The notes beneath the pieces were generated by a model. It ran no database searches. It saw nothing but the letters and a program-made list of their open reading frames with translations, and was not told the origin of the DNA. Below, piece after piece: positions 41,791-43,581 of a DNA stretch of 64,000 bases. The position numbers were made by a program, and so were the translations under genes. This DNA comes from the human T2T-CHM13v2.0 reference genome, Homo sapiens. Location of the stretch: NCBI RefSeq assembly GCF_009914755.1, contig NC_060940.1; one strand, 5' to 3'. Positions within the stretch are counted from its first letter, which is position 1. Every line of letters begins with the position of its first letter.

Positions 41791-42578
41791 AGTCACATCT
41801 AACCGTGCCCACCAGAGGGGCAGCCTGCCACTGCCCTCCTCACCTTGTTTCTTTACAAATACGGACCTGAACAGTATTCACATCAGCATGCCACATAAAA
41901 ACAAGCCCTGGAAAAGCCTCACAGTCACTTTGGAGGTCACGTGTTTTTCATGAAAAAAAAAAATTGTTTTTTTTTTTTTTTTACTAAAGAGACAGGGTCC
42001 CGCTATGTTGCCCCATCTGACCTCTAACTCCTGGCCTCAAAAGTGGTCCTCCACCAGATCAGACCTGTTGATAGATGAAAACTGTCTGCTTTCTCCTCTG
42101 GCGGGAGAAGACTATTCTTCCTTTTAAAAGGAAACTCGAATGAGGACTGCAAGCCTCTCGTTTTACCGGACACTAAACCCAAAATTAAGGATAATGGAGA
42201 TCTGGTTTTTATCAAGCCTCAATAATGTAACACTGCCCCAAGCGAAAACAGAAAAAGATTTCATCCAACTCTGCACCCCTGGGGTAATTAAGCAAGAGAA
42301 ACTGGGCACAGTTTACTGTCAGGCAAGCTCTCCTGGAGCAAATATGATTGGTAATAAAATGTCTGCCATTTCTGTTCACGGTGTGAGTACCTCTGGAGGA
42401 CAGATGTACCACTATGACATGAATACAGCATCCCTTTCTCAACAGTAGGATCAGAAGCCTATTTTTAATGTCATCCCACCAATTCCCGTTGGTTCTGAAA
42501 ATTGGAATAGGTGTCAAGGATCTGGAGATGACAACTTGACTTCCTTGGGGACTCTGAATTTCCCTGGTCGAACGGTTT

Positions 42579-42956
42579 CTTTTTCTTTTGAGATGGAGTC
42601 TCGCTCTGTCGCCCAGGCTGGAGTGCAGTGGTGCGATCTTGGCTCACTGCAAGCTCCGCCTCCCGGGTTCACACCATTCTCCTGCCTCAGCTTCTCAAGT
42701 AGCTGGGACTACAGGCGCGCACCACCACGCCCGGCTAATTTTTTGTATTTTTAGTAGAGACGGGGTTTCACCGTGTTAGCCAGGATAGTTTCAATATCCT
42801 GACGTCGTGGTCCGCCCGCCTCAGCCTCCCAAAGTGCTGGGATTACAGGCGTGAGCCACTGCACTTGGCCCCCAAAGTGCTGGGATTACAGACATGAGCC
42901 ACTGCGCCTGGCTCCCAAAGTACTGGGATTACAAGCGTGAGCCACCGCGCCTGGCC
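42579..42956 (-). mobile_element. AluY inserted in the retrocopy, with a triplicated 43-bp 5' end
   Basis: AluY-type gcaagctccgcctcccgggttcac and ccgtgttagccaggat; flanking repeat aacggttt at 42571 and 42958. Confidence 0.9.
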
Positions 42957-43355
42957 CAACGGTTTTTTCTAATGGCTATTTCAAGGTAAGATTCTGTCTC
43001 TTAAGAATGGTACATTTAAGATAGATTATTAGATGTAAATCTTCATTTATTTGTATGTGTTCTCTAAAGATTCATGTGTTTTTTTATATGAAGAAGTTTA
43101 AGTGGCCTTTTGAAAGTAGGAAGGGTAGACGTACAGATGGTGACATCTGTACGTAACCATTTCAGGTTTCTTCCTTAAATAGTGGTATTCAGTATCCCAC
43201 TGGCCAATGGTAAGGATTTTATTTAACATTTTAAAAATAATATTGCTCATTAAGAGATATCTTAAGGAAAAATTACATAAATTCAGGAGAGTATGTGTCA
43301 TCACATTGTGTTGTGCATGTTCATTCAGCTGTTTTAGAATATGTTCTTATATTAC

Positions 43356-43397
43356 AATAAATGATACCCTTAATTACATAGTCAAAAAAAAAAAAAG
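43356..43397 (+). terminator. Polyadenylation signal and reverse-transcribed poly(A) tail of the retrocopy
   Basis: AATAAA, then a CA cleavage dinucleotide 22 nt later, an A-run and the 3' TSD. Confidence 0.9.
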
Positions 43398-43581
43398 TGG
43401 TCCTCCACTTCAGCCTCCAGAGAAGCTGGGACTACAGGAGGCGCATGCCACCATGCCAGGCTTAACCTACAAACAGTTCCTTATCATCTACTGCCTCAGG
43501 TTCAAACCCCTTCCCCCGTTTTTTAGCACACTGTTAGATGTTTTTCCTAACTTAACTTATAAAGTCTTATTATTCCCTAAC

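What the first reader, a model, noticed from the sequence alone, without database searches (positions are those of the whole stretch)
42039..43409. NR3C1 retrocopy looks like a germline fossil of the intron-2 prematurely polyadenylated GR transcript
Seen: GR exon-2 coding sequence runs to the native exon end (...AATGGCTAT(T)TCAAG). It does not join exon 3 but continues through an intact donor (gtaag, 42986) into 398 nt of AT-rich sequence. AATAAA lies 370 nt after the donor, then a CA site 22 nt later, A14, and an exact 16-bp TSD beginning AAAA (L1-endonuclease-like). These are the hallmarks of L1-mediated retrotransposition of a polyadenylated RNA that was not spliced at this donor. Established (recalled): NR3C1 intron 2 is the model case of PCPA after U1 snRNP inhibition, with a cryptic site roughly 385 nt into the intron. 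Inference: this truncated RNA existed naturally in an ancestral primate germline or early embryo, so the PCPA isoform is old and physiological rather than only a knock-down artefact. The pseudogene is known; I am not aware that this origin has been pointed out.
Basis: partly seen in the sequence, partly recalled or inferred. Interest (0 to 1): 0.92.

Follow-up and report, generated by a model that had tools for sequence, protein, structure and literature searches.

The report
GR pseudogene copied from intron-terminated transcript
The chromosome 16 glucocorticoid-receptor pseudogene is a reverse-transcribed copy of a short receptor RNA that was left unspliced after exon 2 and ended at the same intron-2 poly(A) site that laboratories use as a model of premature polyadenylation, so it is a tidy fossil of that RNA but not proof that the RNA has a function.

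Summary
Window 42056-43387 (+) is one copy of NR3C1 from chr5. It starts inside exon 2 at CDS nt 640, runs through an unspliced exon-2 donor and continues about 400 nt into intron 2. A younger antisense Alu (about 42579-42956) splits it.

Homology stops at CAAAA, 22 nt after an AATAAA. At that point the parent has only four A's followed by a GU-rich stretch. The copy has 13 A's, not 14, and then an exact 16-bp target-site duplication.

The parent sequence at this end matches, 100 of 100 nt, the "intronic PAS of nr3c1" substrate in Table S4 of PMC10404622. Two published intron-2 mutagenesis primers also map inside the copied stretch.

It is therefore a 5'-truncated, L1-type retrocopy of the unspliced NR3C1 PCPA transcript. 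I estimate it at roughly 20-35 Myr old, using recalled substitution rates.

"Physiological rather than a knock-down artefact" is over-reach. One germline capture shows the RNA existed, not that it functions. The PCPA transcript was also already measured in control cells (PMC4227790). No paper I could search links NR3C1P1 to this origin. RefSeq annotates only the half left of the Alu. It is a neat minor finding.

The parts
42039..42054 (+). 5' copy of the 16-bp target-site duplication AAAAGTGGTCCTCCAC. The base before it is C, so the bottom strand reads TTTT/GA, which resembles an L1 endonuclease site.
   Evidence: the 16-mer occurs 2 times in the window. The L1 endonuclease consensus TTTT/AA is recalled, not tested.
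42055..42055 (+). Single C between the target-site duplication and the first parent-derived base. The parent has G here, so it is an untemplated or mutated junction base.
42056..42578 (+). NR3C1 exon-2 coding sequence from CDS nt 640 onward. It is 5'-truncated and disabled by two in-frame stops and by indels. This is the only part RefSeq annotates as NR3C1P1 (42056-42590).
   Evidence: The parent ORF matches Pfam GCR PF02155 at E 8e-209.
42579..42956 (-). Younger Alu inserted antisense into the retrocopy and absent from the parent. It is flanked by a duplication of about 9-11 bp (AACGGTTT...). Its 5' end carries a 43-bp unit in three tandem copies (42828-42957).
   Evidence: (many genomic Alu matches to query 538-832 at 90-93%).
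42957..42985 (+). Last bases of exon 2 (CAACGGTTTTTTCTAATGGCTATTTCAAG), with one inserted T relative to the parent.
42986..43383 (+). First part of NR3C1 intron 2, beginning with the intact, unused donor GTAAG. It is 398 nt here and 413 nt in the parent. It contains both cryptic 3' splice sites studied in PMC4227790, and both are unspliced.
43356..43361 (+). AATAAA poly(A) signal. In the parent it starts at intron +386 and is the first AATAAA or ATTAAA in the 1480 nt of intron examined. It is the hexamer mutated to AACAAA in the published control substrate.
43384..43396 (+). Run of 13 A's. Up to 4 come from the parent's CAAAA and 4 belong to the target-site duplication, so at least 5 are untemplated. 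This is the poly(A) tail remnant.
43393..43408 (+). 3' copy of the 16-bp target-site duplication.

Best explanation
NR3C1P1 is a 5'-truncated, semi-processed retrocopy made by target-primed reverse transcription of L1 type.

Its template was an NR3C1 RNA that was not spliced at the exon-2 donor. That RNA was cleaved and polyadenylated at the first canonical poly(A) signal of intron 2 (AATAAA at +386, cleavage in CAAAA at about +413 to +417). This is the same site that serves as the model substrate for premature cleavage and polyadenylation (PCPA) when U1 snRNP is blocked.

The cDNA was inserted into an old Alu-like sequence in an intron of ZCCHC14, antisense to that gene, in a germline-lineage cell of an anthropoid ancestor. 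I estimate this at roughly 20-35 Myr ago. An Alu later landed inside the copy.

Shown: colinearity with the parent, the unspliced donor, the end point at the published poly(A) signal, the untemplated A's, the target-site duplication, and uniqueness in the genome. Inferred: L1 as the reverse transcriptase, the age, and the cell type.

The copy is dead DNA. It records that the PCPA RNA existed, was polyadenylated and was reachable by the L1 machinery. It says nothing about whether that RNA has a function.
For: - Homology: two colinear blocks match chr5 NR3C1, at 94.9% for the exon part and 89.0% for the exon tail plus intron. There is no other copy in the genome.
- Identity of the parent: the parent reading frame is the GR N-terminal domain, Pfam GCR, E 8e-209, and it ends at the donor.
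- End point in the parent: the parent reads ...ACAATAAATGATACCCTTACTTACATAGTCAAAA|GTTGTGCTGCCTTATTTGT, that is four A's and then a GU-rich element.
- End point in the copy: 13 A's followed by an exact 16-bp duplication of the upstream flank.
- Link to the published site: 100 of 100 nt of the published 'intronic PAS of nr3c1' substrate (Table S4 of PMC10404622) match the parent across this end point.
- Link to the published transcript: two PMC4227790 mutagenesis primers for cryptic 3' splice sites in the PCPA transcript each map once between the donor and the poly(A) signal. Each has one mismatch, an A in the parent where the primer has G, inside a CAG; I read this as the designed 3' splice-site mutation.
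- Literature: PMC3737548 states that the premature 3' end lies within intron 2 of NR3C1.
- Against internal priming: the parent intron has an A19 run at +1281 that the copy does not end at.
- Dating: the exon part has 21 mismatches in 541 aligned columns and the intron part 26 in 400. This fits one neutrally evolving copy against a constrained exon and a neutral intron.
Against: - The untemplated A excess is small, at least 5 of the 13 A's, because the parent's AAAA and the duplication's AAAA both abut the run.
- The exact cleavage nucleotide cannot be fixed within CAAAA. It also could not be compared with the original 3' RACE mapping, because Kaida et al. 2010 and Berg et al. 2012 are not held.
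- The parent sequence just past the cleavage site (AAAAGTTGTGCTGCCT) matches the target-site duplication at 11 of 16 positions by my reading. This leaves a slim opening for annealing of the nicked target to an uncleaved pre-mRNA.
- The 5' truncation hides whether the RNA started at an NR3C1 promoter.
- No other primate genome and no germline 3'-end data could be examined here.
Confidence: 0.9

Rival explanations
1. Internal priming on an uncleaved NR3C1 pre-mRNA or intron-retaining RNA. The nicked target (3'-TTTT plus adjacent bases) annealed by microhomology to the internal CAAAAGU of intron 2, so no real poly(A) tail was involved.
For: The parent's AAAAGTTGTGCTGCCT and the target-site duplication AAAAGTGGTCCTCCAC agree at 11 of 16 positions, including the first six (my reading).
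Against: This route would leave 4 A's, not 13. Expansion from A4 to A13 is unlikely. It would make the match to the experimentally used poly(A) signal a coincidence: hexamer 22 nt upstream, GU-rich element downstream, 100 of 100 nt identical to the published substrate. The much better internal priming site, A19 at intron +1281, was not used.
Confidence: 0.04
2. DNA-level (segmental or transposition-independent) duplication of a chr5 genomic fragment that spans the exon 2 / intron 2 boundary.
For: The copy contains intron sequence and an intact donor, as a genomic fragment would.
Against: Homology ends exactly at a poly(A) site with added A's. It is bracketed by an exact 16-bp direct repeat of the target. 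Window 41500-44000 against 3.5 kb of the parent gives no homology outside the two blocks. The target flanks read as one interrupted Alu-like sequence.
Confidence: 0.01
3. One reading: the retrocopy shows that the PCPA isoform is an ancient, physiological (selected, functional) NR3C1 product of the germline or early embryo.
For: - The site was demonstrably used tens of Myr ago, and the hexamer is shared by the parent and the copy.
- It is the first canonical hexamer after the donor.
- The last 66 aligned nt before cleavage differ at only 1 position.
- The transcript would carry an intact ORF for the GR N-terminal domain, ending at a TAA inside the donor.
- The PCPA transcript is detectable in unperturbed cells (PMC4227790).
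Against: One retrotransposition event is an existence proof, not a measure of abundance or selection. Rare aberrant RNAs are also captured by L1. One mismatch in 66 nt against about 4 expected is not significant (Poisson p about 0.07, my arithmetic). No conservation, expression or protein data could be examined here.
Confidence: 0.25

Closest known systems
L1-mediated processed pseudogenes (retrocopies) of cellular mRNAs
   Same: Single dispersed copy on another chromosome, 5' truncation, A tail at the end of homology, 16-bp target-site duplication starting AAAA, disabled reading frame.
   Different: The only exon junction it spans is unspliced. Its 3' end is an intronic poly(A) site rather than the gene's 3' UTR site. 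It is therefore a 'semi-processed' copy of a truncated isoform.
NR3C1 intron-2 PCPA transcript of U1 telescripting studies (Kaida et al. 2010, recalled; PMC4227790; PMC3737548; PMC10404622)
   Same: Same unused exon-2 donor, same intron segment with both cryptic 3' splice sites, same AATAAA, and the same sequence around the cleavage site.
   Different: Those are RNAs seen in cultured human cells, mostly after U1 blockade. This is a DNA copy fixed in the germline tens of Myr ago. It corresponds to the unspliced PCPA form, not the TRAP150-induced spliced form.
Processed pseudogenes used as 'genomic fossils' of ancestral transcript isoforms (Shemesh et al. 2006, PNAS; recalled, seen only as a reference, not held)
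   Same: The same logic: a retrocopy preserves the structure of the RNA it was copied from, including non-canonical isoforms.
   Different: I could not check whether that survey, or any other, lists NR3C1P1 or intron-terminated isoforms. Searches for retrocopy or processed pseudogene together with intronic polyadenylation found no paper making the link.

Membership tests
L1-mediated retrocopy / processed pseudogene | Homology is confined to a transcript of a parent gene located elsewhere, with no flanking genomic homology. | tested here: met
   two colinear blocks only; chr5 and chr16 only.
L1-mediated retrocopy / processed pseudogene | An untemplated A tract at the 3' end of homology. | tested here: met
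   13 A's in the copy against 4 in the parent, so at least 5 are untemplated once the duplication's AAAA is discounted.
L1-mediated retrocopy / processed pseudogene | A target-site duplication flanking the insert. | tested here: met
   An exact 16-mer at 42039 and 43393, the only two occurrences in the window.
L1-mediated retrocopy / processed pseudogene | Introns removed. | tested here: not met
   The single junction covered, the exon-2 donor, is unspliced and about 400 nt of intron follow. Hence it is 'semi-processed'. Splicing of exon 1 to exon 2 cannot be seen because of the 5' truncation.
L1-mediated retrocopy / processed pseudogene | An L1 endonuclease-like nick site (TTTT/AA on the bottom strand). 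| tested here: inconclusive
   The site reads TTTT/GA. The consensus is recalled, and a single site has no statistical weight.
Copy of the NR3C1 intron-2 PCPA transcript | The exon-2 5' splice site is unused and transcription continues into intron 2. | tested here: met
   The parent ORF ends at the donor.
Copy of the NR3C1 intron-2 PCPA transcript | The 3' end is at the published intronic poly(A) signal. | tested here: met
   Table S4 of PMC10404622 matches the parent 100 of 100 nt across the end of homology. The primers of PMC4227790 map upstream of it.
Copy of the NR3C1 intron-2 PCPA transcript | The same cleavage nucleotide as mapped by 3' RACE or 3'-seq. | not testable with these tools
   Kaida 2010 and Berg 2012 are not held. 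No poly(A)-site database is available. The position is ambiguous within CAAAA.
Segmental (DNA-level) duplication | Homology extends beyond transcript ends, with no A tail and no target-site duplication. | tested here: not met

The most novel reading that the evidence does not exclude
The intron-2 poly(A) site of NR3C1 is an anciently used and maintained site. Its RNA is stable, polyadenylated, reachable by the L1 machinery in the germline or early embryo, and able to encode an AF-1-only GR fragment of 394 residues plus Arg, ending at the TAA inside the donor. Its retrocopy would then be the first recognised example of a wider class: retrocopy 3' ends that stop in introns, which could be mined genome-wide as a dated fossil record of telescripting-sensitive PCPA sites.
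Probability: 0.25. Interest if true: 0.55.

Novelty: new member of a known kind. Interest (0 to 1): 0.38.

Why it matters
- Independent evidence for the site: the copy is non-experimental evidence that the textbook PCPA site of NR3C1 produced a polyadenylated RNA in a germline-lineage cell, without any antisense treatment. The hexamer and cleavage region were already in place roughly 20-35 Myr ago.
- Annotation: RefSeq's NR3C1P1 covers 42056-42590 only. The element actually runs to 43396, and the part right of the Alu, including the intron-2 tail, is unannotated.
- A cheap wider survey: retrocopies whose homology ends at an intronic poly(A) signal just after an unspliced donor could be collected genome-wide.
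- Limits: this is one locus. It does not show function. Basal use of the site was already reported.

Tried and rejected
- DNA-level duplication: rejected. There is no flanking homology, and an A tail plus target-site duplication are present.
- Templated A tract in the parent: rejected. The parent has only four A's at that point, and the A19 at intron +1281 was not used.
- Additional NR3C1 retrocopies or other copies of the intron segment: none found.
- Spliced form of the PCPA transcript (the TRAP150-induced form) as the template: rejected. Both cryptic 3' splice-site regions are present and contiguous in the copy.
- Original PCPA papers: Kaida 2010 and Berg 2012 are not held. Shemesh 2006 is not held either. 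What I say about these three is recalled.
- Supplementary PDF of PMC4227790: it could not be read.
- Literature searches for a prior statement of this origin:
  - NR3C1P1 occurs in 2 papers, and in both only in gene lists.
  - 'retrocop' plus 'intronic polyadenylation' gave 0 papers.
  - 'processed pseudogene' plus 'intronic polyadenylation' gave 10 papers (9 listed). None is about this by title or abstract, and I did not read them.
- Bacterial promoter and terminator scan: a wasted call, irrelevant to a human locus.
- Left flank against Alu: no match at the threshold used. Only the right flank matched, at 77-88% over short stretches.

Full report
**What is there**

Reading window 41800-43700 and searching the window's own genome with 42039-43409 gives three kinds of match.

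- Query 18-543 matches chr5 143931518-143930990 on the minus strand at 95%.
- Query 912-1349 matches chr5 143931008-143930557 on the minus strand at 89%.
- Query about 538-832 matches many dispersed Alu copies at 90-93%.

BLAST of window 41500-44000 against the 3.5-kb parent locus L002 returns exactly two HSPs. Window 42056-42581 matches at 94.9% over 530 columns, and window 42950-43387 at 89.0% over 455 columns. Nothing matches outside them. The two blocks abut in the parent, so the copy is colinear with chr5 and is interrupted only by an Alu that the parent lacks. Each Alu-free half has only two places in the genome, chr16 itself and chr5 (2 candidates, 2 scored, in each).

**Identity of the parent**

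In gene orientation the chr5 locus carries an open frame that begins MDSKESLTPGREENPSS and ends ...FPGRTVFSNGYSR. It scores 693.8 bits (E 8e-209) against Pfam GCR, PF02155, the glucocorticoid-receptor N-terminal domain.

The frame stops at a TAA that is part of the donor: AAG|GTAAG reads as AG|G for Arg and then TAA. The retrocopy starts at CDS nt 640, and the exon ends at CDS nt 1184. In the receptor frame the copy has two stops and frame-breaking indels, so it is a dead pseudogene.

**The unspliced donor and the intron**

After ...AATGGCTAT(T)TCAAG the copy continues with GTAAG at 42986 and then 398 nt that align to the first 413 nt of the parent's intron. The alignment has 26 mismatches in 400 aligned columns and 19 gap columns. 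For the exon part the figures are 21 mismatches in 541 columns and 6 gap columns.

**The 3' end**

The parent reads ...ACAATAAATGATACCCTTACTTACATAGTCAAAA and then GTTGTGCTGCCTTATTTGT. The copy reads the same up to CAAAA with one mismatch.

The 16-mer AAAAGTGGTCCTCCAC occurs twice in the whole window, at 42039 and 43393. That is a target-site duplication bracketing the insert.

Discounting the four A's the parent has and the four in the duplication, at least five A's are untemplated. AATAAA sits at 43356-43361, 22 nt before the CA.

In the parent this hexamer starts at intron position +386. It is the first AATAAA or ATTAAA in the 1480 nt of intron I could see; the next is an ATTAAA at +461. The parent intron also has an A19 run at +1281, which would be the natural place for internal priming on a pre-mRNA. 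The copy does not end there.

**Link to the published PCPA site**

- Table S4 of PMC10404622 (supplement read) gives the '3MS2-NR3C1 DNA template'. [quoted passage not shown]
- A 100-nt stretch of its NR3C1 part matches L002 1029-1128 (minus strand) with 0 mismatches. It straddles the point where the retrocopy's homology ends.
- The negative-control substrate changes this very AATAAA to AACAAA.
- PMC4227790 (sections 6 and 17 read, plus passages) mutated two cryptic 3' splice sites lying between the 5' splice site and the poly(A) signal of the NR3C1 PCPA transcript.
- Both of its mutagenesis primers map once each in L002, at 1279-1314 and 1196-1221. Each has one mismatch, an A in the parent where the primer has G, inside a CAG; I read this as the designed mutation. 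Both positions are inside the stretch carried by the retrocopy, where the two sites are contiguous and unspliced.

The original mapping papers could not be read, so the exact RACE-mapped nucleotide is not compared. These are Kaida et al. 2010 and Berg et al. 2012.

**Mechanism**

Four features are the signature of target-primed reverse transcription by the L1 machinery acting on a polyadenylated cellular RNA: a dispersed single copy, 5' truncation, an A tail, and a 16-bp duplication beginning AAAA. The bottom strand reads TTTT/GA; the consensus TTTT/AA is recalled, not tested.

The template was the unspliced, intron-terminated NR3C1 RNA. Because the insertion is inherited, it happened in a germline-lineage cell.

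The target was itself an old Alu-like sequence. The right flank matches the internal Alu at 77-88% over short stretches, while the left flank did not match at the threshold used.

A later Alu inserted antisense at about 42579-42956, with a short duplication of AACGGTTT....

**Age**

The intron part differs by 6.5% and the exon part by 3.9%. With both intron lineages neutral, that is about 3.3% per lineage. Using recalled primate substitution rates of about 1-1.5e-9 per site per year, this gives roughly 20-35 Myr. That is near the divergence of apes and Old World monkeys. The counts are small (26 and 21 differences) and the rates are recalled, so this is a rough figure only.

**Rivals**

1. Internal priming on an uncleaved pre-mRNA. 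The parent's AAAAGTTGTGCTGCCT and the duplication AAAAGTGGTCCTCCAC agree at 11 of 16 positions (my reading), so some annealing is conceivable. However, this would leave four A's, not 13. It would also make the match to the experimentally validated poly(A) signal a coincidence. I give it about 4%.
2. DNA-level duplication. The tail, the duplication and the lack of flanking homology contradict it. I give it about 1%.

**What the fossil does and does not show**

It shows that this RNA existed, was polyadenylated at this site and met the L1 machinery in an ancestral germline or early embryo, with no U1 knock-down involved.

It does not show that the isoform is 'physiological' in the sense of abundant, regulated or selected. 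L1 also captures rare RNAs.

The contrast with a 'knock-down artefact' is also overstated. PMC4227790 measured the endogenous NR3C1 PCPA transcript by 3' RACE and qPCR in mock-transfected and control-siRNA cells and reported no significant change on TRAP150 or BCLAF1 depletion (passages). This implies a detectable basal level.

The last 66 aligned nt before the cleavage site differ at one position, against about four expected. That is suggestive of constraint but not significant (my arithmetic, p about 0.07).

**Novelty**

The pseudogene is annotated, but RefSeq's span (42056-42590, from the hub's table) stops at the Alu. The exon-2 tail, the donor, the intron segment, the hexamer and the tail are therefore unannotated.

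In the searchable library NR3C1P1 appears in 2 papers, both as an entry in gene lists. Other searches gave the following.

- 'retrocop' with 'intronic polyadenylation': 0 papers.
- 'processed pseudogene' with 'intronic polyadenylation': 10 papers (9 listed), none on this topic by title or abstract, and not read.
- Searches on glucocorticoid-receptor pseudogene, GRLL1, semi-processed pseudogenes and genomic fossils: nothing relevant.

Subscription papers, and the supplements I could not open, may still contain it. The general idea that retrocopies preserve non-canonical transcript isoforms is established (Shemesh et al. 2006, recalled; seen only as a reference). I therefore file this as a new, well-documented member of a known kind.

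**Verdict**

The structural interpretation is confirmed with high confidence (0.9). The functional extrapolation is unsupported. Interest is modest (0.38): it is a clean, citable curiosity about the model PCPA site and a pointer to a feasible genome-wide survey, but it is not surprising to a specialist.

Noticed in passing
L002:1484-2668 (-), that is chr5 NR3C1 exon 2 plus the donor: If exon 2 is left unspliced, the GR reading frame ends after one extra codon: AG|G for Arg, then the TAA inside the donor GTAAG. The PCPA RNA would therefore encode an N-terminal-domain-only receptor of 394 residues plus Arg, with its stop codon in the terminal exon.
   Followed up: partly
window 42828-42957: The 5' end of the Alu inside the retrocopy (antisense on the + strand) carries a 43-bp unit in 3.0 tandem copies at 87% match. 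That is a local triplication of the Alu's first about 43 bases.
   Followed up: no
window 42056-42590 versus 42056-43396: RefSeq's NR3C1P1 feature covers only the part left of the Alu. The remaining 430 nt of parent-derived sequence, with the donor, intron segment, AATAAA and tail, lies outside the annotated pseudogene (hub table).
   Followed up: yes
window 41955-42054 and 43409-43470: The insertion site lies in an old, diverged Alu-like sequence in antisense orientation. It has an A11 run followed closely by a long T run (about 41954-41982) upstream. Only the right flank gave BLAST matches to the internal Alu, at 77-88%.
   Followed up: partly
L002, parent intron 2 position +1281: There is an A19 run about 870 nt downstream of the PCPA site in the parent intron, probably the tail of a repeat. 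It is useful as a negative control for internal priming.
   Followed up: no
window 43397-43408 versus the parent just downstream of the cleavage site: The parent sequence after CAAAA and the chr16 target-site duplication agree at 11 of 16 positions, or 7 of 12 without the A's. This is probably chance, but it is unexplained.
   Followed up: partly
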